Positions 2,917 through 54,821 of a DNA stretch of 64,000 bases are shown here, in pieces (position 1 is the stretch's first letter; each line of letters opens with the position of its first letter). The notes under the pieces were generated by a model. That model worked only from the letters and a program-made list of their open reading frames with translations, searched no databases and was not told the DNA's origin. Source of the DNA: Escherichia phage vB_EcoS_ESCO30; the sequence record NC_106513.1. One strand, 5' to 3'. Both the position numbers and the translations under genes were made by a program.

Positions 2917-5900
2917 TGGCTATAACTAAAATAATTTTACAGCAAATGGTCACTATGGACCAGAATAGCATAACTGCAAGTAAGTATCCTAAATATACAG
3001 TTGTGCTTTCTAATTCCATTAGCTCTATTACGGCAGGAGAACTAACTACTGCTATAGAATCCTCTAAAGCTTCTGCTGCAGCAGCTAAACAATCAGAGAT
3101 TAATGCTAAACAGTCAGAGCTAAACGCTAAAGACTCTGAGAATGAAGCAGAAATTTCCGCAGCATCTTCCCAGCAATCTGCAACTCAGTCTGCATCTTCT
3201 GCTACTGCTTCTGCTAATAGCGCTAAAGCTGCTAAGACTTCTGAGACTAATGCAAAAGCTAGTGAGACGGCTGCAAAAACTTCAGAAACCAATGCAAAGG
3301 CTAGTGAAACAGCGGCTAAAACTTCTGAGACCAATGCTAATAGTAGCAAAACTGCTGCTGCTGCATCTGCTTCCGCAGCAAAAACCTCAGAAACTAATGC
3401 TGCTGCATCTGCTTCTGCCGCTAAAACCTCTGAAACTAACGCTAATAGTAGTAAAACTGCTGCTGCTAACAGTGCTAGTGCTGCTAAAGCATCAGAAACC
3501 AATGCTAAGACCTCAGAAACTAATGCGGCTGCTTCTGCTACTAAAGCTGAAAACGCAGCTTCCGGTATGCGTGATTCTATAGGTTTAGGTAATGCCCCCC
3601 GTAATTGTCCTGATATTTCTGGTAATCCTTCTGCGTATATTGGCTTTATGCGTATCATGAGTACTGCGGTAGGCTTTCCATCAATAGCCTCTGGAGAAAG
3701 TAGTCTTACAGGATTTATTAGTCAAGTGGATGGTAGTCCAGCGTACACTGGTGTTTTCCAAGGATGGGCGTCCCGCTCATTATATACATATCGTTGGGCA
3801 AGCAACATAGGCCCACAGTGGACACGTCATGCTCGTAAGAATGAGGTTGATAAGCTCGTCCAACTAAGTTCTGAGACCCACCTATTAAACCCGGGTGATA
3901 ATGCTAAAATAATTATTACTTCCAATAAACTCTGGGGAGCTTATGATATAGAGAATAGGACATACATACCTCTTGCAGTAGGACAGGGAGGTACCGGGGG
4001 TAGATCAGCTGCTGAAGCAAGAGCTAATCTACAGCTAAACCGCTTCCAACGTTCCAGTGATACAAGAACCATCGTTTGTTCAACAGATGTTCAGGCGGAT
4101 GGCTGTTATTTACAGGTTGATGCTAGTGGTCAGTGGGGCGCATTTAATCCTATAACTGGTAAATGGCAACCTCTCGCAATAGCTCAGGGTGGCACTGGTG
4201 CTCTTAATACTTCTGACGCACGTAGAAATCTGGAAGTAATGTATCGTAGATTTTCTACCTTAACAGACCAGAACTTGAATGATCTTACGGGTGAGTCTAC
4301 AGGTTTCTACTACCAGGGTCTATCTGCTAATGCAACTGCAGCCCGTAATTATCCTATTCAAGAAGCGGGAAACTTAATGGTACTACAAAATGGTGCTAAT
4401 GGGGTTGCTGGATGTTGTCAAATATACATTACCTTTAGTACTAATAGGATATACGAACGTAGTTATAACCCAGGTACCTCAACATGGTCTGCCTGGGGAT
4501 CTATCCTTAATAGTTATGATCCTAGCTACTGTAGACAGCTTATTGAGCTAGGTTCCCAGCATGCACCATTATTTGCTGGTCTAGCATTAACTGGATATAG
4601 TAATAGTACGGTAGCTGCTGGAGGTATTATTAATAGCTATCTAAGAGCTACAGATGGTACTCAAAGGGTACGTATGCGCTTATATCCAGAGAAACTTGCT
4701 GATGGGGTTGCGGCTGCAACGCTACAGGTTATGGGGGAAGATACTGGTCCATCTTATAAAACATTCCATTTTAAACACAATGGCCAATTATACGTACCAA
4801 ATGAAATAAATACGGAGACTATATCTGTTAGGGATCTTACTGTAACCCAACGAAATTTAGGTATACCTACTACTGGATTTATGGGTGATTACCAGACTAT
4901 CAATGCACCCGCAGGTGCTGTAGATGGAAAATACTACCCAGTTATATTCTATACTGGAGGTACCAGTGGTTATGGTATTACGCCTGTACCTATATTTGTG
5001 CGTACTCCTGGTAGATCTGCATCCCATGAGATGAACAATAATGTTTTCTCTGGATATGTAGCTTGTGGGGGTTGGAGTGATAGTCCCACTATGGCACACG
5101 GCATGTTTACAACATACGATCCTAATGAACTAGGGATCTTATGTATAAAGGGTAGTAACAAAGACTACTCTCAGCATATAGCAGTGTATGTACACTATAA
5201 GGCATTCCCTGTAAATATTATGACAGACCCTAAGGTTGTGATAACTGTTCCAACTGAGGATTATGTATTGGGTACTAACGGTGTTAAATTTAAGTTTGGG
5301 GTAACAGATGCGGGTGATGGGAACACAGAAGGTAATGTGAGTAATATTCTAAACTTTACTGGTGGTGGTTCTGGTTACTACTCTACCCATCCTTTCCGCC
5401 AGGGATTATCTAATAATTTTGCCCTAACTAATAACCTTAGTACTGGAGATGCTTTTTCTGCTACTGCACCTTCTTTTACTTTTAATGGTAGTGTTGTCGG
5501 TGCTAATAGTTATTCTGCTAGAGGTGATGCTGTAACAAAAAATACGTATATATCTCAACTGGTAAATAGTGCCGATAACATAGTAGGACAGAGTGAGTTT
5601 AGGGCAACCGAAGAAGCAGGACAAATTATTGTTAGGGATATGACTAGTTCTGCTAGTCATAAATTCTTTAATTTTAATAAGGATGGGACCTTTTCAGCTC
5701 CTTCCGGTATTTTATCCTCTACTGGTATAGACTGGAATACACAACATAATATTATCAATAAGTTTTATGGTATTGCTGGTCAAGTTAATAGTCCTGAAAA
5801 CAATGTTGTTTTTGGTGGTGTACATATAGGTTTTAGTGGTAACTTTGCTACTCAACTAGCCGGTAGGGGTAGTAGATATTACCTGAGAAGTATTGAATCT

Positions 5901-20377: not shown

Positions 20378-20459
20378 TCTCCTTTGCACGCTTTCGTGCC
20401 TTCTAAATGCAAAAAGGGGAAGGAGCATAGCCCCCTCCCCTTAGGTTTAATTTACCAGA

Positions 20460-21227
20460 TTATTCAGCAGCCGCAGCTTTTGCATCCAGTTTAGCACGCT
20501 TAGCGGCACCATCATAGTCCTTAGCAACCAGACCACGACGAGACAGCATAGATTTAACACCGCGCTCAGATTTACCAGTTTTCTCAGCGATCTCAGCAAC
20601 AGTCATGTTAACCAGATCCAGGCCTTCTAACAGATCTTCACGAGTTTTAGCACTTGAGGTTTCCTGTACCGGCATAGCAGCGATACGACCTTCACGAAGC
20701 AGACTCAGAGCTTTACCGCGGATCTGCTTGATATTACGACCGAAGTGAGCAGCGATAGCTTCAATAGTAGCACCAGCAACAACCTGATTAACAAAATCAG
20801 TTTCTTCATCCGGAGTGAAGGAACGAACAGCAGCAGCTTTTTCGGTTGGCTTAACAGAAGCGGTCATTTCCAGACTCAGGATCTTACCCTGTACCTGTTT
20901 AGCACCGAACTGACCACCAGCTACAGCAGCAGCGATTTCAGCATAGGTATACTGACCAGCATGAGCATTCAGGAAATCAACCAGTTCAGCTTCCTGCTCA
21001 GGAGTCCACGGGGATTTCTGTACTTCGTTAGCTTTTTGTACTTCGAAACCTTCTTTACGCAGCTTAGAGCCAACAGAGCGAGCGGTAACGTCTTTGCCAG
21101 TTTCAGCAGCCAGTTCAGCGGCGATAGCAGCTACTTGTTCTTGAGAGATTACATCAACACCCAGAGCAGTGGCTTTTGCTTTCAGAGACTCGGTTACACC
21201 TTCTACGTTCCAGTTCAGTTTAGACAT
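20460..21227 (-). CDS. putative DNA-binding protein with repeated HTH-like modules (T5 D5-like?)
   Basis: 255 aa, Ala/Lys-rich, repeated xIAxxTGKxxxxVxSKLRxxG modules. Confidence 0.35.
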   Translation of the reverse strand: MSKLNWNVEGVTESLKAKATALGVDVISQEQVAAIAAELAAETGKDVTARSVGSKLRKEGFEVQKANEVQKSPWTPEQEAELVDFLNAHAGQYTYAEIAAAVAGGQFGAKQVQGKILSLEMTASVKPTEKAAAVRSFTPDEETDFVNQVVAGATIEAIAAHFGRNIKQIRGKALSLLREGRIAAMPVQETSSAKTREDLLEGLDLVNMTVAEIAEKTGKSERGVKSMLSRRGLVAKDYDGAAKRAKLDAKAAAAE

Positions 21228-21999
21228 TATTATTTTTCTCCAATAGTTCTTTAATCGACAGGATTTCTATCCCATTCGTTTCGGCTTTCTTATAAGATGA
21301 GGAAGAACGCTTCGATTCATCCTCACAGATTAGGTATTTGACGTCTTTGGTAACGGATTTCTTAACCGTATATCCTAGACCTTCTAAATAGTTTGTTGCA
21401 TCCGTTCTATTTGCAAAATCTTGCAAAGATCCGGTAATACACACCGTGATTCCATTTGGCTGGGCAACTAATTCATCTGTAATGATGTCAGCTTTAGCAC
21501 CCTTAATACCATTTGAGAATTTCCACGGTAGTTCGATAACATCCTTGCCTTGTGGGGAACTTAGCCAGGCTTTATAATTTTCTCCAGCCTTGCCGTCAGC
21601 CTTCACATCGTGGAAGCTAGTGCAATTTTGGGATAATTTCTTTGCTGCAACCTCTCCAATTAGAGGGATTCCTAAAGAACCGAGAACTGAACCAAAGTCA
21701 ATGTCTCCGCGAACTTTAGTATTTAATTCGCTAATTAACTTAGCGGCAACCTTGCTACCCACGGCTCTAACCAAATCTTCTTCGGTTAGGTAAAACAGTT
21801 CTGAAATCTTCGTCAGCTCCAGCTTCTCAATAGTTTTTGGGCCAAAGCCCTTTAACTTCATTTTTGAACAGAAGTTCTCAATTAACTTACTTGATTGCGC
21901 TGGACAGTTGGACTTATTCCGACAGAATAATTGTCCGTTGACAAGATCTAGCTTAGAACCACAAGAGGGACATTGTGTTGGAATTTCGATTTTCATCAA
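21220..21999 (-). CDS. NAD-dependent DNA ligase, C-terminal subunit (Zn-finger, HhH, BRCT-like)
   Basis: CPSCGSKLDLVNGQLFCRN zinc finger followed by HhH-like GFGPKTIEKL; begins 200 bp after the adenylation-domain gene. Confidence 0.75.
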   Translation of the reverse strand: MMKIEIPTQCPSCGSKLDLVNGQLFCRNKSNCPAQSSKLIENFCSKMKLKGFGPKTIEKLELTKISELFYLTEEDLVRAVGSKVAAKLISELNTKVRGDIDFGSVLGSLGIPLIGEVAAKKLSQNCTSFHDVKADGKAGENYKAWLSSPQGKDVIELPWKFSNGIKGAKADIITDELVAQPNGITVCITGSLQDFANRTDATNYLEGLGYTVKKSVTKDVKYLICEDESKRSSSSYKKAETNGIEILSIKELLEKNNNV

Positions 22000-22026
22000 A
22001 TTTCTTCCTTATCAATTTATATAAAT

Positions 22027-22055
22027 ATTATAGCAAGTATTTAAGCATTTAGCAA
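22027..22055 (-). promoter_or_regulatory. sigma70-like early promoter in the ligase inter-subunit spacer
   Basis: Minus strand TTGCTA-17-TATAAT. Confidence 0.5.
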
Positions 22056-22198
22056 CTACAATTTTAACTAACTTTGCTTACCCTCGCCATAACTTTCTAT
22101 CCCTCAACTGAATGATAATAGTATATACCTAAGCGGCGAAAATGTCAATAACCACTTTATAATTCCGATATGGTAGATGGGTAGCAAAGGGTTATGTA

Positions 22199-23170
22199 TT
22201 AATCGTATACTCTCTCTACTATGCACGGGATTACACCACCAGCACGAATCACTCGAATCTGGCAACCGATCTCTAGATCAAGAGAGTTAATATAATCAAC
22301 GTTATTAAGAGTCGCTTTAACAATTGTAGCATCATCAATAATTACCGGTTCGAAATAACCAACTGGAGTTACTTTACCAGAAGCCCCTACCTGCCATTCA
22401 ACTTTAGTAAGAGTTGTAATCTCGCCTTCTTCATCCTCTTTAATAGCGAATGCCCCGCGAGGGAATTTATTAGTCCAGCCTTCTCGGAAGAATTTGTTGT
22501 TGTCATTAATACGAACAACTTTACCATCCGTCGGAATCCATTTAAAGAAGGAACGCACATTAACAACTGTTAAGAAGTTCTCATTCTCTAGCCAGAGCAT
22601 ATCTTTTAAATACGATTCTGTAATACCTACAGATTCAGCAGAACATTGGATACCGTATGCAACGAAGATTAAACCACCTTCCCCGATACGTTGTGCGAAA
22701 TCATCGCTATCTTTGAGGTTAATAGCACCAGAGGCAAAGTTACGTTTATTTTCTACTTCTTTTGTAATTAGAACTTCACCAGTGATTTGAGTAGGTACTT
22801 TTTGGGAAATCTTTTTAGGGATGTTCAGCAATCTTACGTTGCTTGTGACATCATTCCCTAGAATACCATTACCACGAGTTAGCGCTTGAACAAATTCGCC
22901 ATTAATATATAACAGAGAAATCGCACAACCATCTAACTTATCAGTTTCTACCTGACCTAATGGGTTAAACGGAGGTTTATCTCCACGATTATAATAAACT
23001 TTCTGTAAAGAATACATACGATACAGATGTGGAATATCACCCTTAGGCCCGATCTCTTCCTCTAATGGGAAGCGTTTTACCAGGCGATCATATTCTTCAT
23101 CAGAGATTAAAGACATGCCTTGATAATATGCTTCTTGACAGCGTTTAATAAATTCTTTTACATTGGTCAT
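22199..23170 (-). CDS. NAD-dependent DNA ligase, N-terminal subunit (adenylation + OB domain)
   Basis: KLDG adenylation-site lysine motif (VETDKLDGCAISL), NAD-ligase Ia-like N-terminus. Confidence 0.8.
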   Translation of the reverse strand: MTNVKEFIKRCQEAYYQGMSLISDEEYDRLVKRFPLEEEIGPKGDIPHLYRMYSLQKVYYNRGDKPPFNPLGQVETDKLDGCAISLLYINGEFVQALTRGNGILGNDVTSNVRLLNIPKKISQKVPTQITGEVLITKEVENKRNFASGAINLKDSDDFAQRIGEGGLIFVAYGIQCSAESVGITESYLKDMLWLENENFLTVVNVRSFFKWIPTDGKVVRINDNNKFFREGWTNKFPRGAFAIKEDEEGEITTLTKVEWQVGASGKVTPVGYFEPVIIDDATIVKATLNNVDYINSLDLEIGCQIRVIRAGGVIPCIVERVYD

Positions 23171-23201
23171 TTATTTATATCTCTCATTAATTTATATAAA
23201 T

Positions 23202-23230
23202 ATTATATAACAAAACTGAGTTGAAAGCAA
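23202..23230 (-). promoter_or_regulatory. sigma70-like early promoter
   Basis: Minus strand TTGCTT-17-TATAAT followed by conserved leader. Confidence 0.5.
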
Positions 23231-23236
23231 ATACAT

Positions 23237-23548
23237 TTATTCTTTTTCCGCCAGGCGTCTAGCTTCTTTTTCTACTTCTAATAAAACCTCACTATTAGAC
23301 AATATTTTAGTAAATGCCTTAAATAAATGAGATGTTGTTTCTAGAGTGTATGGCATACTGAATCCACTTTTTGTTGGAAACCATTCGCCTTCTATATCTT
23401 GGAGCCAGTACCTAATTCCTAAGTATAGATTCCCCCTAAACTCAGATACAGTTAGCCTAACCTGTTGGCCATCTTCTCTTTCCCAGATAACTATGGACTG
23501 ATCATCTACATGCCCAACATAATCCTGATTTACATTATCTCCCGACAT
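23237..23548 (-). CDS. hypothetical protein
   Basis: 103 aa ORF. Confidence 0.4.
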   Translation of the reverse strand: MSGDNVNQDYVGHVDDQSIVIWEREDGQQVRLTVSEFRGNLYLGIRYWLQDIEGEWFPTKSGFSMPYTLETTSHLFKAFTKILSNSEVLLEVEKEARRLAEKE

Positions 23549-24195
23549 TTTATTGCTCCCTGACTTAGGAGATATTCCTCTGCCTCCTCTGGTTGAATAT
23601 TAAAAAACTCAGTAGAACCATCAAATATTGATTCTGTAAATATCTGTGTAGTACTAAAAAATCTATGAGCTTTATTTTCTAGATTATACGCTGACTCATC
23701 ATAAGAGTATACTCCATGTATACTCAAGTCCTCCAGATTAGAGTCTTTTTTGATCTCTAAAAGTCTTCTATCTGGACTTTTAGATGTTCCTATTTTTGTT
23801 CCTAACCGTGGACTATAGAATATATACAAATAGCTTGTAGTTACACAAATAGGACAAGACCTTCCTGCATTTTTAACTTTATCCACGCTACTAGTCCACC
23901 TATGCCCCTCTGCACACTCGAATACTGCTTGACTATGTGCATTGATATAGGGAGGTATAAGTTTTATGCCTCTATTGGCTAATTGTTGATTTATTTGCTC
24001 TATAGTAAGTTTAGCTTTACCGCTACAATGTGGGCAACCACTGCCTTTTCTTATATTATTTAGGTATGCCTTCCACTGGTGGCCTTTTGAGCATCTAAAT
24101 ATGGCGGGTGTTCTTATGTTAATCCACTCACTTACTATACTAAAACCTCGCGGCTCTAATTCTTTATTTATTTGCTTTACTGTTAACTTTTTCAC
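23530..24195 (-). CDS. T5orf172-domain protein (GIY-YIG-related) with tandem zinc ribbons
   Basis: Two CxxGHxW...CPxC zinc-ribbon repeats followed by ...KIGTSKSPDRRLLEIK... T5orf172-type motif. Confidence 0.65.
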   Translation of the reverse strand: MKKLTVKQINKELEPRGFSIVSEWINIRTPAIFRCSKGHQWKAYLNNIRKGSGCPHCSGKAKLTIEQINQQLANRGIKLIPPYINAHSQAVFECAEGHRWTSSVDKVKNAGRSCPICVTTSYLYIFYSPRLGTKIGTSKSPDRRLLEIKKDSNLEDLSIHGVYSYDESAYNLENKAHRFFSTTQIFTESIFDGSTEFFNIQPEEAEEYLLSQGAIKCREIM

Positions 24196-24200
24196 TATAA

Positions 24201-24240
24201 CCCATATACAGCAAAGGAGAGCCGAAGCTCTCCTTTTCTT
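24201..24240. terminator. terminator-like hairpin
   Basis: AAAGGAGAGC-CGAA-GCTCTCCTTT hairpin flanked by T/A runs. Confidence 0.45.
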
Positions 24241-24242
24241 TA

Positions 24243-24533
24243 TTATTTTTTGCCTACTGGCGTAGCTCTATCAAGTTCACTAGACAATGAAGTGATACGT
24301 TTCACCTTATTTACAGGAATAAATCGGAAGCTGTCATTAGTGCGACTAAACACTAGAATTTCGTCATCTTTTGGTTGACGGATACGCTCCTGAGCAAAAC
24401 GTTTACTTAGGTACTTATCAGAAAAATCCATAGTACCCTGAAGGTACGTAGTACCTTTTTGGCGTAGTTTCTCATAATGAAGGTAGAACTCATTATGGGC
24501 TTCACATGCGGAGATAATTTCTTGTTTGTTCAT
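24243..24533 (-). CDS. hypothetical protein
   Basis: 96 aa ORF. Confidence 0.4.
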   Translation of the reverse strand: MNKQEIISACEAHNEFYLHYEKLRQKGTTYLQGTMDFSDKYLSKRFAQERIRQPKDDEILVFSRTNDSFRFIPVNKVKRITSLSSELDRATPVGKK

Positions 24534-45801: not shown

Positions 45802-45830
45802 TTGCTTCCGGCTCCAAAATTCTGTATAAT
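45802..45830 (+). promoter_or_regulatory. sigma70-like early promoter
   Basis: TTGCTT-17-TATAAT plus conserved leader. Confidence 0.5.
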
Positions 45831-45870
45831 ATATTCATAAATTTGAGAAAACAATAAAAGGAAAACAAAT

Positions 45871-46053
45871 ATGCCAGTATCTAAAAATGTTCGTAAAAAT
45901 GGTAAGAAAGCTACTCGTAATCTTGGTATCCGTCGTATGGCTGAACGTCAATCAGGTATCCAGAAAATCTTTGATCTGTTAAATCGTGCTAATCCTAAAA
46001 TTGATAACAGTAATGATACTGTTCTGCGCACTCTGCTGGCAATTGGTCTGTAA
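45871..46053 (+). CDS. hypothetical protein
   Basis: 60 aa ORF with SD. Confidence 0.35.
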   Translation: MPVSKNVRKNGKKATRNLGIRRMAERQSGIQKIFDLLNRANPKIDNSNDTVLRTLLAIGL

Positions 46054-46106
46054 TAGATCAAATTTAAACAAATTCAAATCTCAAACTTCATATAAGGAAG
46101 CAAATA

Positions 46107-46745
46107 ATGACTACTCGTATTTCTAAAACTCGCGCTCTGGCAACTATCAAATCTCTGGAAGCTAAAATCCGTAAAGCTACTGAACAACAGCTTCTGATCG
46201 CTGTTGGTGAAGGTAAGGATAAAAATAAGGTTGTAGTTGGCGCTGCAATCGAAGTAGACGATCTGTCTAATCGTATTAGGACAGATTTCCAGTCTCTGCT
46301 GGATATGATGTCCCAGCGTGACCGAATCAAAGCAGCTTTGATTAAGAGCAATGCGGAAACAATCGTTGAGATTGGTTCTCGTAAAATGACTGTTGCAGAA
46401 GCAATTGAAGCTAAACGTTCTATGGAGCTTAAAGCTCAGTTGCTGGCTAATATGCGTAAGCAGTTCCATGCCGCTACGGTTAAGTTTAATACGCAGAAAG
46501 CACAGTTTGATGCTAAATATGAGCGTTTGCAGGATAGCATGGCTACCCGCGATAAGAAAACTTCCGAAGATGAAGTTAAAATGCAGCTCAACCTGCTGGA
46601 ACTCAAGAATACTCCATTCTTGATTGATCCGCTGGAACTGGAGAAGCTGATTAAACAGCATGACGAGGAATACCAGGACTTTGCAACAAATGTTGACTTT
46701 GTTCTGTCCGAGTCTAACGCCTCTACTTTCATTGAAGTAGAGTAA
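46107..46745 (+). CDS. hypothetical coiled-coil protein
   Basis: 212 aa ORF with AAGGAAG SD; plus strand chosen over the overlapping minus-strand ORF. Confidence 0.5.
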   Translation: MTTRISKTRALATIKSLEAKIRKATEQQLLIAVGEGKDKNKVVVGAAIEVDDLSNRIRTDFQSLLDMMSQRDRIKAALIKSNAETIVEIGSRKMTVAEAIEAKRSMELKAQLLANMRKQFHAATVKFNTQKAQFDAKYERLQDSMATRDKKTSEDEVKMQLNLLELKNTPFLIDPLELEKLIKQHDEEYQDFATNVDFVLSESNASTFIEVE

Positions 46746-47128
46746 TAATTTAAAAGCTAGTAAATCGGTAGACGAAAGCCCAAGCATCTTACCTCGCAGC
46801 AGCGGTTGAAATACGAGGTTAAATAAGACCGCTGACCATACTATAAAGTATAATCTATTGGAGATTATGTTTATTACATCAGACATTTAATCTGACACGT
46901 AAAAACAAAGCGTCGTTGATATTACCGACACAACTTCAAAGATCAACATTTAAGTATGAAAGCTGAAAAGTTTAAAGAACTCAAACTTCTAAACTTCTAA
47001 AGCTAAAAGATGCAAAGTATTCGTTGATGATTCAAACCCTAGATCAAAGGTACATGGCTCGTAAGATATGGCCTGTGGCGCCTCTAGGCTGTTTATCGGT
47101 TTACTAGTTTCACAATTTAAAAATGTAT

Positions 47129-47157
47129 TTGCTAATTTATTAAGTTTTCTGTATAAT
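47129..47157 (+). promoter_or_regulatory. sigma70-like early promoter
   Basis: TTGCTA-17-TATAAT. Confidence 0.5.
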
Positions 47158-47187
47158 ATATTTTTAAATTGATGAAACGAGGCTATT

Positions 47188-47505
47188 ATGACTTTTCATA
47201 TTTTGATTGATGATGTGCGTAATCTTCACGGAATGGACATTATCATTCGAACCCCAGAAGCCGCTGTCGAGTTTCTGAATAAAACTGATACCACAGGCCA
47301 CTTCGTTTATATGGATAATGACTTGGCTGTAGATGGTATGGAAGGTTATCAAATTCTTCGTTTACTCTTAGAATTTGGGCAGAGACCAAAGAAAGTGGTA
47401 CTAGTAACCTCGAATCCCGTAGCTAAGCAAACTATGCGTAATGATTTGCTTGACTTGGGATACAAAGAAAACCCCAATCGTATTGAATATGATTGGCAGG
47501 AGTAA
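47188..47505 (+). CDS. hypothetical protein with receiver (CheY-like) domain-like motif pattern
   Basis: ILIDDV N-terminal acidic pair, YMDNDLAVDGMEG mid acidic pocket, VVLVTS, downstream Lys: order typical of REC domains. Confidence 0.35.
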   Translation: MTFHILIDDVRNLHGMDIIIRTPEAAVEFLNKTDTTGHFVYMDNDLAVDGMEGYQILRLLLEFGQRPKKVVLVTSNPVAKQTMRNDLLDLGYKENPNRIEYDWQE

Positions 47506-47510
47506 AAAGA

Positions 47511-47960
47511 ATGAAGGCAGCTTTGCTTTTAGTAGCTGCCCTTACCTTCAGCTTTAGTAGTCAGGCATCGCACGATGCAAAAGAAATAGATTGCATTGCT
47601 AAAAATATCTATTTCGAAAGTCGTGGTGAGGGCATAAAGGGAATGACGGCGATTGCACATGTTACTAAAAACCGTGTAAACTCCGGTAAATTCCCAGATT
47701 CCTACTGTAAAGTAGTATATCAGTCTAACCAGTTCTCTTGGGTATCTAAGAGACCAAAAGTTGATAAAACTGATGAGGCTTGGCAAACCGCTAAGAATTT
47801 AGCTAGAGTGATATACTACGTTGATTTACCACAAGATCCTACATATGGAGCACTTTACTTCCATAGTGGTAAAGATAAACCTTACTGGACAAAGAAGTTT
47901 AAGAAAACAACTAAGATTAAGGGACATACGTTTTATAAACCTGTTGTCACTAAAACTTAA
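47511..47960 (+). CDS. secreted SleB/CwlJ-like cell wall hydrolase (Hydrolase_2 family)
   Basis: Signal peptide MKAALLLVAALTFSFSSQA; IAKNIYFESRGE...AIAHVTKNRV motif block. Confidence 0.55.
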   Translation: MKAALLLVAALTFSFSSQASHDAKEIDCIAKNIYFESRGEGIKGMTAIAHVTKNRVNSGKFPDSYCKVVYQSNQFSWVSKRPKVDKTDEAWQTAKNLARVIYYVDLPQDPTYGALYFHSGKDKPYWTKKFKKTTKIKGHTFYKPVVTKT

Positions 47961-47968
47961 AAATTTAC

Positions 47969-47997
47969 TTGCTTAAATACTTAAATTTCCGTATAAT
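47969..47997 (+). promoter_or_regulatory. sigma70-like early promoter
   Basis: TTGCTT-17-TATAAT. Confidence 0.5.
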
Positions 47998-48028
47998 ACT
48001 TCCATAAATTAATGAGAGGAAGCGAAAT

Positions 48029-48198
48029 ATGAAATCAGTTGTAATTATTGGTGTTAACACTCGCGGTATTCGTACTACGAAAACTGTTAAAACTTCTAAC
48101 GTTGCTGAGATCACTACGAACCCTAAAAAGTTTGATTTCGCCAAAGTCTCAGCAGTTATGACAGAACAATCTTTTAACCAAGCGTTAGGAATGAAATA
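48029..48198 (+). CDS. hypothetical small protein
   Basis: 56-codon ORF with GAGGAAG SD, coupled to next gene. Confidence 0.3.
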
Positions 48199-48642
48199 AT
48201 GGAAGAGAATATTTTAGATGTTTTGCGTAGAGCTTTGCAGGATTCTAAGTTTAATGGTTCTGATAAAGAAGTCGCTAAAAGCTATCAGACCATAATCGGG
48301 GATCTTCAGCGTATTGATAAAGATTTCATCACTTCTGAACAATTTGTGTCTTATCTCAAAGCTCAACTAAAAAGCATTAACCAGATGAAAGCTAAACTTC
48401 ATGGTCAAGATCTTGATAGTTATAGCTTGCAGTCCGCTCAGTATGAATACATTCTAAATAAGTGGTTGCAGGAGTATCTGCCTCCTCAGTTATCTGATAC
48501 TGAGATTCGTAAATACTTTGCAGAATTAGTTAAGCTAAACCCTGGAATTACAAAAGGTATGCTGATGAAAGCGATTAAGGAAGAATTTCCTGGGCGTTAT
48601 GATGGTGGTACTGCTGCTCAGATTGCTGGCGAATTTAATTAA
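48199..48642 (+). CDS. GatB/YqeY-domain-like protein
   Basis: 147 aa; YLPPQLSDTEI and KGMLMKA...G..DG motif pattern resembling bacterial YqeY. Confidence 0.45.
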   Translation: MEENILDVLRRALQDSKFNGSDKEVAKSYQTIIGDLQRIDKDFITSEQFVSYLKAQLKSINQMKAKLHGQDLDSYSLQSAQYEYILNKWLQEYLPPQLSDTEIRKYFAELVKLNPGITKGMLMKAIKEEFPGRYDGGTAAQIAGEFN

Positions 48643-48650
48643 AAATTTAT

Positions 48651-48679
48651 TTGCTAAATGCTTATAAATTCTGTATAAT
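48651..48679 (+). promoter_or_regulatory. sigma70-like early promoter
   Basis: TTGCTA-17-TATAAT. Confidence 0.5.
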
Positions 48680-48902
48680 ATATTCATAAATTAGAGAACA
48701 GCGAGCCGATTACGCTGAGTGCAGAATCCCAACCGGAGCGCATTGAATAGAGTCGGTGGGTTAGTTGGAAAACTAGTACACAGGGGGCGGCAATCCCGGT
48801 TAGTGGCTAGAACGTGTAAAATGAGGCGTCTGAAACCTCTCCCCTAAACTCTTCTCTAATTTACTGATAGTGGGGTGTGGAAATCACTTATGTAGTAACA
48901 CT

Positions 48903-48974
48903 GCCGATCTAGTATAAACGGTATTATCAAGCCGTAACTGGTGGAAGATGTAGGTTCGAATCCTACGGTCGGTA
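48903..48974 (+). tRNA. tRNA-like element (anticodon not assignable)
   Basis: 7-bp acceptor pairing (2 G-U) and consensus T-arm GTAGG-TTCGAAT-CCTAC; D and anticodon arms do not fold canonically. Confidence 0.3.
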
Positions 48975-49476
48975 AGAACTGGATAACTGGTGCTTTTAAC
49001 GTAAAAGCTTCCGAGGTTAGTTGCGCACTGCCTAAACCACGCGGTAGTTGGTTCCAGACTAACCAACCAGTCTGCTGAATAGTTTTATTACGATTTAACT
49101 ATGTCCAGGCATAAAGAAGAACTTTAGAAGGTATTCTAGGTAGTGAAGTTTTTCCTCCATATCGGAGTAGTTTTTCAAGCTATCCACAAAGTGGGAAATG
49201 ATGGCATGAGAGATGCCACTAATGGTGCACAATAGCACAGGTAATTCGCGATAACCCCTGTTGAGTAGCAGCAAAAAGGTGGGGAGTCATGACCCTAACC
49301 TAACCGAGTCCTCAGTATACCGCAGGACATAACCACTAAGTCACCTTGACTTAAACTGGAAAATAATAGACGTTACTGTATTTTGTCTTGAAATACTTAA
49401 TGAGTGAGACTTATGACTCTCCCGGTATCGTCTGTATTTTTAAGAGTTTTTACGAGAGTTCTTAAAAATACTTAAA

Positions 49477-49548
49477 CGGGGTGTAGTCTAAGGGAGAGGC
49501 AGGAGTCTTCTAAATTCCTTTATGCAGGTTCGAATCCTGTCACCTCGG
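49477..49548 (+). tRNA. tRNA-Arg (anticodon TCT)
   Basis: Hand-folded cloverleaf; loop CTTCTAA; T-arm GCAGG-TTCGAAT-CCTGT; encoded CCA. Confidence 0.6.
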
Positions 49549-49585
49549 CCAATTTTATTAACTGTAACTAAGACAAAGGAAATAT

Positions 49586-50533
49586 ATGTTTAATACTAAA
49601 AATATGAAAGAACTGACTTCTGAGCAAAAAGTAATTCGCACTATTAAACGTTGGGGTATTGGTGCTGTAGTTGGTTTAGCAGGTTTAATCCTAGCTTTTA
49701 ATTCATATACTATTGTTTCTGATGGTACGGTTAAAACCCAAACATTTCTGGGTAAAGTAGATCCTAACCCAGTATTACCTGGTTTCCATCTTGTAAACCC
49801 ATTTGCATCTTTCGATACTTTTAGTACAAAAGATATTGCTGTAAAATTAGATAAACTTCAGGTTCCTAGCCAGGATAAGTTTAAATCCACTGTTGACCTG
49901 ACTGTTATGTTACAATTTGATGGTTCTAAGGCACCGATCAACCGTATTAACGCAGGTACTCAGGATCAGGCGTTAGATAAGTATGTAACTGAGAAATTGC
50001 TATCTACTATTCGTGAATTTGGTAAGTCTGTTCCTAAAGCACAAGATTTGTTTGACGCTAAAATTCAGGCACAATTGCAAACCGCAATTCAACAGGAAGT
50101 TGAAGAGTATGCACGCCCCTATGGTTACACAGTTAAGCAAGTATTCCTTCAGGATATTACATTGCCACCGGTAATTATGGAACAGGTACAGAATACCAAA
50201 GTTCGTGAAGAACAAGTTAATGCTGCGAAAGCTGAATTGGCTCGTGTTGAACAAGAAGCACAGCAGAAGGTTAAACAAGCAGAAGCAGATCGTGAAGCTC
50301 GTAACAACCAAGCTATTGCAAACGAACGTGATGCAGATGCTAAACTGTACGCAGCTAAGAAAGAAGCTGAAGCTAACGCTGCTCTGCAACGTACTATTAC
50401 TCCTGAGATGATTCGTTGGAAACAACTAGAAGTTGAAATGATTCGTGCTCAGAAATATCAAGGTGGTGTACCGCAAACAGTAGTTGGCACTGGTTACGAT
50501 GGCCAGATGATTATGGATATGCGTAACAAGTAA
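49586..50533 (+). CDS. SPFH/band-7 (prohibitin/HflC-like) domain membrane protein
   Basis: N-terminal TM helix, ...PGFHLVNPF... SPFH start motif, long C-terminal coiled coil. Confidence 0.55.
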   Translation: MFNTKNMKELTSEQKVIRTIKRWGIGAVVGLAGLILAFNSYTIVSDGTVKTQTFLGKVDPNPVLPGFHLVNPFASFDTFSTKDIAVKLDKLQVPSQDKFKSTVDLTVMLQFDGSKAPINRINAGTQDQALDKYVTEKLLSTIREFGKSVPKAQDLFDAKIQAQLQTAIQQEVEEYARPYGYTVKQVFLQDITLPPVIMEQVQNTKVREEQVNAAKAELARVEQEAQQKVKQAEADREARNNQAIANERDADAKLYAAKKEAEANAALQRTITPEMIRWKQLEVEMIRAQKYQGGVPQTVVGTGYDGQMIMDMRNK

Positions 50534-50557
50534 TACCCACATGTAATATTCGAAGTA

Positions 50558-50596
50558 AGCCCTGCGTTCCCTGGAGAGCGCAGGGCTTTTCTGTAT
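50558..50596 (+). terminator. rho-independent terminator
   Basis: GCCCTGCG-loop-CGCAGGGC hairpin followed by TTTTCTG. Confidence 0.65.
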
Positions 50597-50607
50597 TTAA
50601 GGTAAAA

Positions 50608-50645
50608 GAAAAGCCCCTAAGTCTTTCGACTAGGGGCTTTATTGT
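50608..50645. terminator. second hairpin terminator (bidirectional)
   Basis: GCCCCTAG-TCTTTCGA-CTAGGGGC hairpin with A-run upstream and T-run downstream. Confidence 0.6.
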
Positions 50646-50653
50646 TTGGTTCT

Positions 50654-50848
50654 TTAGAACCATATACTCTTATTACAGCAACCACCCATACGGGAGGCCA
50701 ATCTTGACTGAAAATCTACTCTAGGGGGCAGGATAAGAGTAGGCTTAAAGGCAAAGGGATTGAACGCCGGTATTTGTGTAAACATTGCTGGAGAGCAACA
50801 ACGTGCTACAGGCATTGGGCAGCACGAAACAGATTTTCTGCAACACAT
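50654..50848 (-). CDS. hypothetical Cys-rich small protein (uncertain)
   Basis: 64 aa ORF, 8 Cys, immediately downstream of Gln-rich gene; may be non-coding. Confidence 0.2.
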   Translation of the reverse strand: MCCRKSVSCCPMPVARCCSPAMFTQIPAFNPFAFKPTLILPPRVDFQSRLASRMGGCCNKSIWF

Positions 50849-50857
50849 AATTCCTCC

Positions 50858-51274
50858 TTAGGAGTTATTATCACCATTTTGAGCTTTTGCAACTTGGCTT
50901 TGGCAGAAGCTATTAAACTTACCCATAAGTGATACAAGCTGTTTCCCATCCTCTGTCTTTGCGAAGTCTTCGAAAAGGGCTAGTACTGCCTGTCCTTCCG
51001 CAGAAACCTGCGGTTGTTGGGTTTGTTGCTGAACTTGCTGCTGAGCCACCTGTTGCTGCATTTGTTGAGGCATTTGCGACTGCCCGCTCATTTGCTGCAT
51101 CATTTGCATAGGACTCACACTTCCAGGGTTTTGCTGGAGTTGTTGCTGCATCTGTTGCGCTTCTGCTAAACGCTGTTGCAACTGTTGTAGGTAAGGGTTA
51201 TCCAGTCCCGGAACGGGCTGCTGGGAGCCCATTTGTTGATTAAATCCGTTGTTTACAAAACCATATTTACTCAT
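50858..51274 (-). CDS. Gln-rich low-complexity protein
   Basis: 138 aa; extended QQ/QM repeats; SD upstream. Confidence 0.5.
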   Translation of the reverse strand: MSKYGFVNNGFNQQMGSQQPVPGLDNPYLQQLQQRLAEAQQMQQQLQQNPGSVSPMQMMQQMSGQSQMPQQMQQQVAQQQVQQQTQQPQVSAEGQAVLALFEDFAKTEDGKQLVSLMGKFNSFCQSQVAKAQNGDNNS

Positions 51275-51295
51275 AATGGGCTCCTCCCCTTAATT

Positions 51296-52276
51296 TTAAG
51301 CCGGCAGTTTAGCCTGCAGACCAGCCAGAGTCTGAGTGATAGCACCAAGACTTACAGCGATTTGGTTGATTACCTGACCGTTTGCACCACTACCTGCAGC
51401 GATTGCTTCGCGCAGACGGCATTCATTCAGTTCGTCCTGGATACGTGCAGTAGTTACACCAGCGATTGCAGTCTGAAGCTCACAGCAACATTCAGCAAGC
51501 TGACGTTCGATAGCGTTCTGGTTAGCACACATCTGAGCCTGAACAGCGGCAAACTGGTTGTTGGTCTGAATAGACTGCTGGAAAGCAATCTGAGCAGAGT
51601 CAAACTTATCTTGAGCACGTGCTATCTGGTTAGCAGCGAAAGACTGATCCATCTGACGAGAAAGATCGAACTGACCCTGAATAACGTTACGAGTTTCAGC
51701 ACAGATCTGATTTGACAGATTAGCACCTGTACCATAGATAGTAGTCAGAACTTGCTGAGTGCTAGCAGCTTGAGCAGCTCCCACACCGTTTACTGCGCTT
51801 AGAACAGCCCCAGTGCCCTGGTTAGCTTCTGTACGAGTAGTATTGATTGCAGCTAGAATACTTGCAGTATCTTGGTTAGAAAGGATCGCGTCCACAGCAG
51901 TTCCTTCAGCGGCAACACCAACACCGCGACCAAAACCACCAAAACCACCAAATCCGCCTGTTAATAGAGCACCGATTAGGATAGCTCCGAATAGACCCAT
52001 ACCTTCTCCACCGAAAGCACTTGCGTTAGCTGGGAATGCACCCATGCCAGGGAAGCCGTTAGTAAATACGTTTACTGGTTCTTGCATTTTATGTTTTCCA
52101 TATTTATGACAATGTTCATCATCGTCATCTTCTTCATCTTTATCATCGTGTTCACGATGTTCTTCTTCGTAGGCTTTGACTTTCTCCCACTTTTTCTTAT
52201 CTGATTCCTCGTGACGATGCAGTTCTGCTGCTACGCTAGCGACGGTTTCAGGACTCTTAGCTACTTCTTCTGTCAT
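51296..52276 (-). CDS. hypothetical protein with acidic/His-rich N-terminus and Gly-rich hydrophobic segment
   Basis: Start set at MTEEV after strong AGGAGGTG SD; GLFGAILIGALLTGGFGGFGGFG segment; Ala/Gln-rich coiled C-terminus. Confidence 0.55.
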   Translation of the reverse strand: MTEEVAKSPETVASVAAELHRHEESDKKKWEKVKAYEEEHREHDDKDEEDDDDEHCHKYGKHKMQEPVNVFTNGFPGMGAFPANASAFGGEGMGLFGAILIGALLTGGFGGFGGFGRGVGVAAEGTAVDAILSNQDTASILAAINTTRTEANQGTGAVLSAVNGVGAAQAASTQQVLTTIYGTGANLSNQICAETRNVIQGQFDLSRQMDQSFAANQIARAQDKFDSAQIAFQQSIQTNNQFAAVQAQMCANQNAIERQLAECCCELQTAIAGVTTARIQDELNECRLREAIAAGSGANGQVINQIAVSLGAITQTLAGLQAKLPA

Positions 52277-52483
52277 TTTTTGACACCTCCTAGTATATAG
52301 AAAATGTGTGTCTCTTTGATCACTCATCCATAACATATACTTTACACTACCCCGGCGAAAATGTCAAGGGGTCTTTAAAAATTGCCCCCGGATTTTTAGT
52401 GGGGTCACAAATTTTGGTCCTCACCACTTATCTGCTACCCTTAAGTGCCCTATGATTTTCCCCTAAAAAGTTAAAAAATTTGA

Positions 52484-52512
52484 TTGCTTGAATGCTAAAT
52501 TCTCTGTATAAT
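52484..52512 (+). promoter_or_regulatory. sigma70-like early promoter
   Basis: TTGCTT-17-TATAAT plus conserved leader. Confidence 0.5.
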
Positions 52513-53061
52513 ATATCTATAAATTTGAGAGAGGAACCAAATATGAATGTTGATGAGCTAACACAGCACCTCTTATCTAGGGGATTTGATACTGATAAAT
52601 ATCATTGCTGGTTAAGTCCGGAAGGATGGCTAACAGTCCCGTTGTATGATTTCTCTGGGATGTTGAGGGGCTATCAAACTTATAATCCTTCTGCTCCAAA
52701 AGGTCATGGTAAGTGCCCCCTTGAAGCTAAATACTTTACTTATTCTACCACCCAGTGTGTATGGGGACTAGAAACTCTCAATGGAGATGAAAAAGTAGTA
52801 TTGATCGCTGAATCTGTATTTAAGGCAGTTGCGTTACATAACGCTGGTTATCCAGCCATAGCAATGTTGGGTTCTTCTCCAGGAAAAGCGTTATTAAAGC
52901 AACTAAAATTACTACCTTTTAAATTGGTAGCTGTTGGTGATAATGATCCTGCTGGTGAAAAATTTGCTAGAAAATTAAACGGTTTTGTTTCTCCCGTAGA
53001 TGTGGATGAGATGTCTACCGAAAACTTGAAAAATTTTCTTGCTATGAAGCTAAATTTCTAA
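52492..53061 (+). CDS. hypothetical protein
   Basis: 189 aa ORF; probable start at internal Met MNVDELT after GAGAGAGG SD. Confidence 0.45.
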   Translation: MLNSLYNISINLREEPNMNVDELTQHLLSRGFDTDKYHCWLSPEGWLTVPLYDFSGMLRGYQTYNPSAPKGHGKCPLEAKYFTYSTTQCVWGLETLNGDEKVVLIAESVFKAVALHNAGYPAIAMLGSSPGKALLKQLKLLPFKLVAVGDNDPAGEKFARKLNGFVSPVDVDEMSTENLKNFLAMKLNF

Positions 53062-53081
53062 TATAATATATCTTATAAATT

Positions 53082-53168
53082 CGGAAGAATAGCATAACGG
53101 TATTGCAGCAGATTGCTAATCTGTCGGTTTGAAATATAGCCTTGTGGGTTCGATTCCCACTTCTTCCG
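53082..53168 (+). tRNA. tRNA-Ser (anticodon GCT), type II
   Basis: Loop TTGCTAA; long variable arm; T-arm GTGGG-TTCGATT-CCCAC; encoded CCA. Confidence 0.6.
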
Positions 53169-53177
53169 CCAGATTTT

Positions 53178-53252
53178 GGTTCTCAAGCTCATATGGTATG
53201 AGCACCCGGCTCATAACCGGAAGGTACGTAGGTTCGAATCCTCGGGGAGCCA
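53178..53252 (+). tRNA. tRNA with CAT anticodon (Met or Ile-lysidine)
   Basis: Acceptor and D-arm fold well; loop CTCATAA; T-stem has mismatches. Confidence 0.45.
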
Positions 53253-53275
53253 CCAACTTAATTAGGGGATTACAA

Positions 53276-53464
53276 GTGGAATTATACATAGTTTATGTTG
53301 TGTTCATTCAAGATAGAGAATACCCTGATGAATATAAAAAAGGATATAGATTAGCCAGAGCTACCTCTGAAGCCCAAGCTATGGATAAAGTGGCAGATTA
53401 TATGATTACGGTAGAAAACGTACACTATATCGACTACCTTGAAGCCTCAAAAGTAATTGACTAG
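53276..53464 (+). CDS. hypothetical small protein (GTG start, uncertain)
   Basis: Portion of the 53129-53464 ORF not overlapping tRNAs; AGGGG SD 7 nt upstream of GTG. Confidence 0.25.
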   Translation: MELYIVYVVFIQDREYPDEYKKGYRLARATSEAQAMDKVADYMITVENVHYIDYLEASKVID

Positions 53465-53473
53465 GGAGACTAT

Positions 53474-54220: not shown

Positions 54221-54250
54221 CTCCTCCAAACAGAATTTTTAAAAATGTAC

Positions 54251-54801: not shown

Positions 54802-54821
54802 CCAAATTAAAGGTAAAGGAT

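What the first reader, a model, noticed from the sequence alone, without database searches (positions are those of the whole stretch)
21220..23170. NAD-dependent DNA ligase split into two genes separated by a promoter-containing 200-bp spacer
The adenylation/OB part (KLDG motif) and the Zn-finger/HhH/BRCT part are separate ORFs (22199-23170 and 21220-21999). The spacer carries its own promoter of the repeated family (22027-22055). This implies a two-subunit ligase or a disrupted gene, with the C-terminal half independently transcribed.
Basis: partly seen in the sequence, partly recalled or inferred. Interest (0 to 1): 0.45.

Follow-up and report, generated by a model that had tools for sequence, protein, structure and literature searches.

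The report
T5-type two-subunit NAD-dependent DNA ligase

Summary
The window comes from a T5-like phage, about 97% identical in DNA to phages fp01 and T5. ORF 22199-23170(-) encodes domain Ia, the adenylation domain and the OB fold (KLDG, Lys78). ORF 21220-21999(-) encodes the Zn-finger, HhH and BRCT part. The 199-bp spacer has stops in all three frames and two sigma-70-type promoters. The T5 record annotates these as ligA, ligB and promoters P-K28a and P-K28b.

The two products join end to end onto E. coli LigA (residue 398|399, the OB/Zn boundary) with nothing missing. All 51 related loci examined keep the two separate ORFs. Both halves are under strong purifying selection. PDB entries 9HU3 and 9I5I hold both chains of the homologue from Providencia phage PR1.

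A frameshift, pseudogene, intron or intein is excluded or unsupported. The "two-subunit ligase" reading holds. ligB is probably also transcribed by read-through from ligA, and it is coupled to D5.

One addition: the spacer is a variable insertion site in relatives (GIY-YIG, NADAR and DprA-like ORFs), and compact fused relatives of 555-578 aa exist.

Already known; low interest.

The parts
22199..23170 (-). ligA: catalytic subunit of 323 aa, with a short domain Ia, the nucleotidyltransferase (adenylation) domain carrying K78-L-D-G, and the OB fold
   Evidence: ORF. Pfam aden 3.6e-24 and OB 4e-22. PDB 9hu3_A at 2.2e-104. Aligns to E. coli LigA residues 1-398, with K115, D117, G118, R136, E173, R200, D285 and K314 conserved. 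Equivalent to T5 gene T5.116 ligA.
21220..21999 (-). ligB: DNA-binding subunit with a Cys4 Zn finger, a shortened HhH domain and BRCT. It is 259 aa from the TTG at 21999, or more likely 258 aa from the ATG at 21996.
   Evidence: ORF. Pfam BRCT 1.5e-8 and HHH_2. PDB 9hu3_B at 8.5e-80. Aligns to E. coli LigA residues 399-671. Four invariant Cys. Equivalent to T5 gene T5.117 ligB.
22000..22198 (-). Non-coding spacer of 199 bp between ligA and ligB. It corresponds to no LigA residues and holds two tandem promoters.
   Evidence: Stops in all three frames, 31% GC. No Rfam match. Fold z-score -1.0. Relatives have gaps of 71-1374 bp at this position.
22120..22148 (-). Distal spacer promoter, equivalent to T5 P-K28b: TTGACA-17 nt-TATACT
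   Evidence: 11 of 12 consensus matches. Annotated in T5. Both hexamers conserved in the Tequintavirus, Sugarlandvirus and Novosibvirus representatives.
22027..22055 (-). Proximal spacer promoter, equivalent to T5 P-K28a: TTGCTA-17 nt-TATAAT with TG extension, followed by the family's conserved downstream ATTTATATAAATT
   Evidence: Annotated in T5. Conserved across three genera. The 19-mer family has 18 copies against 0.2 expected.
22004..22010 (-). Shine-Dalgarno sequence AAGGAAG of ligB, 7 nt upstream of the ATG at 21996
   Evidence: Read directly from the sequence. Conserved in the alignment.
23189..23230 (-). ligA promoter of the same family: TTGCTT-17 nt-TATAAT plus the identical 19-mer TATAATATTTATATAAATT
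   Evidence: Sequence. Exact 19-mer match at 23189-23207. Annotated as a promoter in the T5 record upstream of ligA.
20460..21227 (-). D5 (DNA-binding protein, 255 aa). Its ATG overlaps the ligB stop (ATGTCTAA, 21220-21227), so it is co-transcribed and probably translationally coupled with ligB.
   Evidence: ORFs and sequence. Equivalent to T5 gene T5.118 D5.
20414..20442 (-). Terminator-like hairpin (13-bp stem followed by a T run) after D5. It is the probable end of the ligB-D5 transcription unit.
   Evidence: It is a consensus match only and is not annotated in the T5 record.

Best explanation
These are the ligA and ligB genes of a T5-like phage (family Demerecviridae). Together they encode one NAD+-dependent DNA ligase made of two non-covalently associated polypeptides.

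The LigA subunit (domain Ia, nucleotidyltransferase, OB fold) reacts with NAD+ to form the Lys78-AMP intermediate and carries the chemistry of nick sealing. The LigB subunit (Zn finger, HhH, BRCT) supplies the DNA-binding half of the clamp, which in bacterial LigA is the C-terminal part of the same chain. The inferred picture is that the two close around a nicked duplex as in the E. coli LigA-DNA complex.

The gene was split exactly in the OB-to-Zn-finger linker of a compact phage-type ligase. This happened at or before the root of the family. The gap is non-coding here and serves as a promoter region. Two strong early sigma-70 promoters drive ligB together with the overlapping D5 gene. ligB is probably also read through from the ligA promoter.

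Shown here: domain content, collinearity, conservation, purifying selection, the promoter sequences and their conservation, and the existence of a solved two-chain homologue.

Inferred: the division of labour between the subunits, the heterodimer interface, and promoter activity in this particular phage.
For: - **Identity with T5:** the region is 97% identical in DNA to T5-like phages, where it is annotated as ligA, ligB and promoters P-K28a and P-K28b.
- **Domain assignments:**
- **Collinearity:** the concatenated products align with E. coli LigA with the junction at residue 398|399 and no residues missing. The nucleophile Lys, the other motif residues and the four Zn-binding Cys are all present.
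- **Conservation of the split:** 51 of 51 related viral loci have the same two-ORF order, with 0 fused, down to 42% identity. All 120 best LigB homologues listed from a 5.8-billion-protein database are stand-alone proteins of 190-263 aa.
- **Selection:** dN/dS is 0.015-0.14 for both halves, and dN is nearly equal for the two halves at every distance: 0.22/0.23, 0.32/0.36, 0.41/0.42.
- **Solved homologue:** PDB 9HU3 and 9I5I contain both chains, 'DNA ligase (NAD(+))' of 339 aa and 'DNA ligase subunit B' of 248 aa. tblastn traces them at 100% identity to Providencia phage vB_PreS_PR1.
[quoted passage not shown] An Ia+NTase+OB fragment of another NAD+ ligase still forms the enzyme-adenylate (PMC1684257).
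- **Promoters:** both are conserved across three genera while flanking positions vary.
- **Transcription unit:** no terminator-like site in the spacer, but one after D5.
Against: - I found no biochemical paper on a T5-type ligase in the searchable library. Heterodimer activity therefore rests on the PDB entry names and on homology.
- Three residues reported as essential in E. coli LigA are substituted: K290->R220, R208->N151, R277->F209 (the essentiality is from my own knowledge of the Shuman-lab mutagenesis work).
- Domain Ia is truncated and gives no Pfam Nlig-Ia hit.
- Promoter function in this phage is inferred from sequence and from the T5 annotation, not measured here.
Confidence: 0.92

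Rival explanations
1. The split is a sequencing or assembly frameshift, or a recently disrupted decaying gene. The real or ancestral state in this phage would be one ligase ORF.
For: Bacterial LigA and several phage ligases are single chains: phiXF1 607 aa, vB_pir03 645 aa, and metagenomic proteins of 555-578 aa.
Against: The gap is 199 bp with 4-7 stops in every frame, so no single indel can merge the ORFs. The same arrangement occurs in 51 of 51 independently assembled relatives and in about 428 phage records. Both halves have dN/dS of at most 0.14. ligB has its own Shine-Dalgarno sequence, ATG and promoters.
Confidence: 0.01
2. The two halves are rejoined after transcription or translation to give one polypeptide. 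The spacer would be a group I or II intron, a translational bypass element like T4 gene 60, or the halves would carry a split intein.
For: Phage genomes do carry such elements, and fractured genes with split inteins are known (PMC2677866). A GIY-YIG endonuclease ORF occupies this very spacer in Salmonella phage SP3.
Against: There is no Rfam family match at E<=1 across 20400-24300. The spacer fold is no more stable than shuffled sequence, z -1.0. The spacer varies from 71 to 1374 bp with unrelated content in relatives. LigA and LigB together account for all LigA residues with no extra intein-sized segments. The PDB entries hold two separate chains, with chain B starting at the native Met.
Confidence: 0.02
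3. The two proteins work independently. LigA would be a self-sufficient minimal ligase, and LigB would have acquired another role, for example as a BRCT/HhH DNA-binding or replisome-recruiting factor co-expressed with D5.
For: ligB has its own promoters and is translationally coupled to D5, not to ligA. In relatives ligA and ligB can be more than 1.3 kb apart with other genes between them. Some viral NAD+ ligases, such as the entomopoxvirus enzyme, lack Zn-finger and BRCT modules (own knowledge).
Against: The two genes are always adjacent or near-adjacent, on the same strand and in the same order. They evolve at the same dN. The Zn-finger Cys and the LigB N-terminus are invariant. Both chains are present together in the PDB entries. 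Bacterial LigA truncated after the OB fold adenylates itself, but according to published truncation studies it does not join nicks efficiently (PMC1684257 for the adenylation; the rest is own knowledge).
Confidence: 0.05

Closest known systems
Bacteriophage T5 ligA (T5.116) and ligB (T5.117), with promoters P-K28a and P-K28b (GenBank AY543070, AY692264, NC_005859)
   Same: Same genes, order, strand, neighbours (D5, D6 helicase, PC4-like gene), split point and spacer promoters. DNA identity is 97.3% over 21100-23240, and LigA is 99.4% identical in protein.
   Different: Only point differences. Outside the finding, the window carries an extra 221-aa T5orf172-domain ORF upstream at 23530-24195 that T5 lacks.
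Two-chain NAD+ ligase of Providencia phage vB_PreS_PR1, PDB 9HU3 and 9I5I
   Same: Homologous subunits at E 2e-104 and 8.5e-80, about 54% identity by tblastn (L040), with the same lengths and the same chain boundaries.
   Different: A different genus with about 46% sequence divergence. I could not find or read the accompanying paper, so its biochemical conclusions are unknown to me.
Bacterial LigA (E. coli LigA, PDB 2OWO)
   Same: Same domain order (Ia, NTase, OB, Zn, HhH, BRCT), same catalytic motifs and Cys4 Zn finger, and collinear alignment.
   Different: E. coli LigA is one 671-aa chain, against 323 + 258 aa on two chains here. The phage enzyme has a shortened domain Ia and HhH domain. 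K290, R208 and R277 are substituted.
Compact single-chain phage-type NAD+ ligases of 555-578 aa from metagenomes (for example P0152, P0224, P0228)
   Same: 35-42% identical to the LigA half and 31-36% to the LigB half, collinear, and of similar total length. The contig carrying P0152 also has a gene matching a T5 family, Pfam Phage_T5_A2.
   Different: These are fused, with 3-17 extra linker residues where T5-like phages have the stop codon, spacer and start codon.
Fragmented NrdA of Aeromonas phage Aeh1, split by the mobE homing endonuclease gene ('genes in pieces', PMC3045599)
   Same: An essential phage DNA-metabolism enzyme is encoded as two adjacent ORFs whose products reassemble non-covalently. 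In Salmonella phage SP3 a GIY-YIG endonuclease ORF sits in the ligase gap.
   Different: In this window and in most relatives no endonuclease gene lies in the gap. The ligase split falls at a natural domain boundary and is old and family-wide, so a mobile-element origin is only a hypothesis.

Membership tests
NAD+-dependent DNA ligase (LigA family, EC 6.5.1.2) | Nucleotidyltransferase domain with the KxDG lysine nucleophile and the other NTase motif residues | tested here: met
   Pfam DNA_ligase_aden at 3.6e-24. K78, D80, G81, R99, E132, R143, D215 and K244 align with E. coli K115, D117, G118, R136, E173, R200, D285 and K314. K290 is replaced by R220.
NAD+-dependent DNA ligase (LigA family, EC 6.5.1.2) | N-terminal domain Ia with the NMN-binding residues that confer NAD+ specificity | tested here: inconclusive
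   Y15, Y16, D24, Y27 and D28 align with E. coli Y22, H23, D32, Y35 and D36. However, the domain is about 20 residues shorter and there is no Pfam Nlig-Ia hit at E<=0.01. The solved homologue is named 'DNA ligase (NAD(+))'.
NAD+-dependent DNA ligase (LigA family, EC 6.5.1.2) | OB fold, Cys4 Zn finger, HhH domain and BRCT domain, in that order | tested here: met
   OB at 4e-22, BRCT at 1.5e-8, and HHH_2 at 3.3e-5 (24.4 bits, below Pfam's curated cut-off of 27). C9, C12, C25 and C31 are invariant in 14 LigB sequences. The alignment is collinear.
NAD+-dependent DNA ligase (LigA family, EC 6.5.1.2) | All domains on a single polypeptide | tested here: not met
   There are two ORFs separated by 199 bp with stops in all frames. 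This is the one respect in which it departs from canonical LigA.
NAD+-dependent DNA ligase (LigA family, EC 6.5.1.2) | NAD+-dependent nick-sealing activity | not testable with these tools
   This needs an enzyme assay of LigA, LigB and the two together.
T5-type split ligase (LigA and LigB subunits of Demerecviridae) | Two adjacent same-strand ORFs, ligA then ligB, split at the OB|Zn-finger boundary | tested here: met
   The same arrangement is seen in 51 of 51 related loci and in six sampled genera.
T5-type split ligase (LigA and LigB subunits of Demerecviridae) | Orthology and synteny with T5 T5.116 and T5.117, with D5 and the D6 helicase downstream | tested here: met
   97% DNA identity and the same neighbours.
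T5-type split ligase (LigA and LigB subunits of Demerecviridae) | The two products form one complex | not testable with these tools
   Supported indirectly. The homologous chains A and B are deposited together in 9HU3 and 9I5I.
Gene split by a free-standing homing endonuclease ('genes in pieces') | An endonuclease ORF between the two halves | tested here: not met
   The spacer contains no ORF with a detectable function. The only ORF of 40 aa or more that overlaps it (22104-22265, 53 aa, TTG start) also overlaps the 3' end of ligA and runs through the conserved distal promoter. No intergenic ORF is annotated between ligA and ligB in the T5, SelmaRatti or ZJUN2 records. A GIY-YIG ORF is present at this site only in Salmonella phages SP3 and RUS_R2 among 50,697 phage records.
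Group I or II intron, or split-intein fractured gene | A conserved intron RNA structure, or intein N- and C-fragments at the junction | tested here: not met
   No Rfam match. Fold z-score -1.0. No extra residues at the junction.

The most novel reading that the evidence does not exclude
The split may be adaptive rather than a tolerated accident. With the DNA-clamping subunit on its own strong promoters and coupled to D5, a T5-like phage could set the amount or timing of active ligase independently of the catalytic subunit. That might explain how site-specific nicks persist in packaged T5 DNA despite a phage-encoded ligase. The gap would then also act as a landing pad where accessory genes (GIY-YIG, NADAR, DprA-like) are repeatedly inserted. 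Nothing here tests this. It is only not excluded by the promoter layout, the family-wide retention of the split and the variable gap contents.
Probability: 0.1. Interest if true: 0.5.

Novelty: already known. Interest (0 to 1): 0.15.

Why it matters
It matters little as a discovery. [quoted passage not shown]

It remains a clean natural example of a multidomain DNA-repair enzyme divided at a domain boundary and kept that way across a whole phage family. That makes it useful for protein engineering (modular ligases) and for asking why phages keep essential genes in pieces. The comparative results here add modest context to a known feature: the split is universal in relatives, compact fused relatives exist, the spacer promoters are conserved, and the spacer is a variable insertion site.

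Tried and rejected
- **Frameshift or assembly error:** rejected. There are stops in all frames and ligB is in a different frame, and 51 of 51 relatives are split.
- **Pseudogene:** rejected by dN/dS of 0.015-0.14 for both halves.
- **Intron or other structured RNA in the spacer:** no Rfam match at E<=1, and no unusual stability, z -1.0.
- **Split intein or bypass:** no extra residues at the junction.
- **Homing-endonuclease footprint in this window:** none found. The only ORF overlapping the spacer is a 53-aa TTG-start ORF at 22104-22265. It has no counterpart in the annotated records and runs through the conserved distal promoter. The ORFs found in the gap of Vibrio and Proteus phages gave no endonuclease hits. 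Only SP3 and RUS_R2 carry a GIY-YIG ORF there.
- **Literature searches:** searches for a biochemical or structural paper on the T5 or PR1 two-subunit ligase, and for P-K28 promoter mapping or T5 transcription-start data, found nothing usable.
- **A possible alternative split point:** P0227 (OB+Zn+HhH+BRCT, 341 aa) sits on a low-coverage 3.4-kb contig with an unrelated symporter-like fragment upstream. It is probably a chimera or fragment and was not pursued.
- **Structure prediction:** not run, because a solved homologue exists.
Full report
**What is there.** ORF listing and direct reading confirm two same-strand ORFs on the minus strand. One is 22199-23170 (323 aa) and the other 21220-21999 (259 aa from a TTG; an ATG follows at 21996). 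They are separated by 199 bp.

Pfam assigns the NAD-dependent ligase adenylation domain (3.6e-24) and OB fold (4e-22) to the first ORF. It assigns BRCT (1.5e-8) and helix-hairpin-helix matches to the second. The KLDG motif is Lys78-Gly81 of the first product.

The spacer is 31% GC, has 4-7 stop codons in each reading frame, and ligB lies in a different frame from ligA. No single indel could therefore merge the two ORFs.

**What the window is.** The region is 97% identical in DNA to T5-like phages, with 445 phage records matching. In the T5 record AY543070 the same two ORFs are annotated as ligA (T5.116, subunit A) and ligB (T5.117, subunit B). Two promoters, P-K28a and P-K28b, are annotated in the spacer and a third lies upstream of ligA. 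Downstream come D5 and the D6 helicase.

Two papers cite the T5 enzyme as subunits A and B (PMC3632103; PMC4319617). [quoted passage not shown]

**Split point.** A MAFFT alignment of the concatenated products with E. coli LigA and two single-chain phage ligases is collinear. LigA ends opposite E. coli residue 398 and LigB begins opposite residue 399. This is the linker between the OB fold and the Zn finger, and no residues are missing.

Conserved catalytic residues are K78, D80, G81, R99, E132, R143, D215 and K244. The domain Ia positions Y15, Y16, D24, Y27 and D28 are also conserved. Three E. coli residues are substituted: K290->R, R208->N and R277->F. The four Zn-finger cysteines of LigB are invariant in 14 diverse LigB sequences.

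Compared with E. coli LigA (671 aa), the pair (323 + 258 aa) has a shortened domain Ia and a shortened HhH region.

**Is the split real and maintained?**
- Annotated records from the genera Tequintavirus, Sugarlandvirus, Novosibvirus and Vipunavirus, and further Vibrio phages, all show separate ligA and ligB genes.
- In 51 loci recovered from viral contigs with a LigB profile, all 51 have ligA followed by ligB on the same strand. None is fused, down to 42-47% protein identity. Gaps range from 71 to 1374 bp.
- All 120 best LigB homologues listed from a 5.8-billion-protein database are stand-alone proteins of 190-263 aa.
- dN/dS is 0.015-0.14 for both halves wherever dS is unsaturated. dN is nearly the same for the two halves at each evolutionary distance: 0.22/0.23, 0.32/0.36 and 0.41/0.42.
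- Neither half is decaying, and the two evolve as parts of one enzyme.

**Solved homologue.** Each product has a strong match in the same PDB entries, 9HU3 and 9I5I. Chain A, 'DNA ligase (NAD(+))' of 339 aa, matches at E 2.2e-104. Chain B, 'DNA ligase subunit B' of 248 aa, matches at E 8.5e-80. tblastn traces chain A at 100% identity to Providencia phage vB_PreS_PR1, another T5-like phage. Chain B aligns from its first residue (MKIQ) to the Met encoded by the ATG at 21996.

I could not find the accompanying paper.

**The spacer.** The two best promoter-like matches in a 4-kb scan both lie in the spacer, in the direction of the genes. They are TTGACA-17-TATACT at 22148..22120 (11/12) and TTGCTA-17-TATAAT with a TG extension at 22055..22027 (10/12).

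Promoter-like matches as a class are not enriched in the region (11 found against 10.0 expected). The support therefore comes from position, the T5 annotation and conservation. Both promoters are kept in Klebsiella (72% protein identity) and Proteus (57%) phage homologues while surrounding bases vary.

The -10 element plus downstream motif, TATAATATTTATATAAATT, is identical upstream of ligA (23189-23207) and of ligB (22014-22032). With up to 3 mismatches it occurs 18 times in the window against 0.2 expected, on the strand of the local genes. The 'repeated promoter family' is therefore real.

No terminator-like site lies in the spacer, and a strong one follows D5 at 20442..20414. The ligB stop overlaps the D5 start (ATGTCTAA at 21220-21227). 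The likely units are therefore:
- a ligA-initiated transcript that reads into ligB;
- a unit running from P28b and P28a through ligB and D5 to the terminator.

The spacer has no Rfam match and no unusual predicted stability, z -1.0.

**Origin and variation.** Outside the family, phage ligases are single chains: Xanthomonas phiXF1 at 607 aa and Vibrio vB_pir03 at 645 aa.

An exhaustive search of 1.84 billion cluster representatives with LigB found more than 100 stand-alone clusters of about 230-265 aa, down to about 30% identity. Interleaved with them were compact single-chain ligases of 555-578 aa. These fused proteins are 35-42% identical to the LigA half and 31-36% to the LigB half. They are collinear and have 3-17 extra linker residues at the junction. 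One sits next to a gene matching the Pfam Phage_T5_A2 family. The T5-type enzyme therefore looks like a fission product of a compact phage-type ligase.

The gap is a variable site in relatives:
- a DprA-like ORF in Vibrio phages;
- a NADAR-domain ORF in one Proteus-type phage;
- a 213-aa GIY-YIG ORF in Salmonella phages SP3 and RUS_R2 only. Its start overlaps the ligA stop, the 3' end of ligA is recoded at the DNA level, and homology to the window resumes at 22181.

This resembles free-standing homing-endonuclease behaviour and recalls the mobE-split nrdA of phage Aeh1 (PMC3045599). It is sporadic and recent, however, so it does not show how the ancient split arose.

**Mechanism.** The most likely mechanism has two parts.
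- LigA is adenylated by NAD+ at Lys78. This step needs only Ia, NTase and OB, as shown for a truncated archaeal NAD+ ligase in PMC1684257.
- LigB supplies the Zn-finger, HhH and BRCT DNA-binding part. The two associate non-covalently, presumably through the OB/Zn-finger surface, and close around the nick as in single-chain LigA. This step is inferred from homology and from the two-chain PDB entries.

The rivals (frameshift, pseudogene, intron/intein/bypass, independent functions) are each contradicted by the results above.

**Verdict.** The feature has been annotated and named since the T5 genome papers, and a homologous complex is in the PDB. Novelty is 'already known' and interest is low.

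Noticed in passing
window 23530-24195 (-), within the segment 23534-24312: A 221-aa ORF with Pfam T5orf172/MUG113 (GIY-YIG-like) and DUF4379/CapR zinc-ribbon domains occupies a 779-bp segment that replaces 129 bp of phage T5. The ORF is also present in phages SelmaRatti and HZ_ZJUN2. It looks like a mobile or accessory gene that varies between T5-like phages.
   Followed up: partly
L061 3199-3840 (Salmonella phage SP3, MG387042 64022-64660): A 213-aa GIY-YIG ORF sits in the ligA-ligB spacer with its ATG overlapping the ligA stop. The last ~100 bp of ligA there gave no blastn alignment to the window, although the encoded C-terminal residues remain similar. Homology to the window resumes 17 bp after the stop. 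The ORF is found in only 2 distinct phages among 50,697 phage records, which is typical of a free-standing homing endonuclease.
   Followed up: partly
L053 ~3192-3809; L006 3885-4448; L052 1369-1749: Other relatives carry unrelated genes in the ligA-ligB gap. These are a NADAR-domain protein (Pfam 1.6e-31), a DprA-like protein (phrog_768) and a protein matching a 'cysteine dioxygenase' phrog. The gap is a recurrent insertion site. NADAR next to an NAD+-dependent ligase may or may not be meaningful.
   Followed up: partly
ligA compared with ligB against L024, L026 and L034: Synonymous divergence of ligA (dS 0.57-0.97) is about three times that of ligB (0.20-0.32) against the same genomes. This suggests the two genes have different recombination histories, with a breakpoint near the spacer.
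   Followed up: no
whole window; e.g. 12896, 12997, 22014, 23189 (-) and 45825-62946 (+): The promoter -10 plus downstream motif TATAATATTTATATAAATT occurs 18 times with up to 3 mismatches, against 0.2 expected. All copies up to about 33 kb are on the minus strand and all from about 45 kb are on the plus strand, which marks the switch in transcription direction.
   Followed up: partly
P0152 / L062 2151-3857, and P0170, P0202, P0217, P0224, P0228: Compact single-chain NAD+ ligases of 555-578 aa from metagenomes are the nearest fused relatives of the T5-type pair. The contig carrying P0152 also encodes a protein matching Pfam Phage_T5_A2. This suggests a T5-related lineage that never split, or that re-fused, the ligase.
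   Followed up: partly
window 20414-20442 (-): A strong terminator-like hairpin (13-bp stem, 8 GC pairs, T run) lies between D5 and the D6 helicase. It is not annotated in the T5 record and would end a ligB-D5 transcription unit.
   Followed up: no
LigA residues R220, N151, F209 (window codons within 22199-23170): Positions equivalent to E. coli LigA K290 (motif IV), R208 and R277 are substituted in the T5-type enzyme. R at the K290 position is also present in the solved PR1 homologue. This may reflect a somewhat different active-site arrangement.
   Followed up: no
GenBank OR847187 ('Listeria phage LM 4-11-1', 4772 bp); protein P0040 ('Brucella melitensis'): Public records labelled as a Listeria phage and as a Brucella protein are about 96% identical to this T5-like ligase region. 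They are most likely mislabelled or contaminant sequences.
   Followed up: no
L063 162-1187 (P0227, 341 aa): A metagenomic ORF encodes OB+Zn+HhH+BRCT without an adenylation domain, which would be a different split point. However, the contig has low coverage and a symporter-like fragment lies upstream, so it is probably a chimera.
   Followed up: partly
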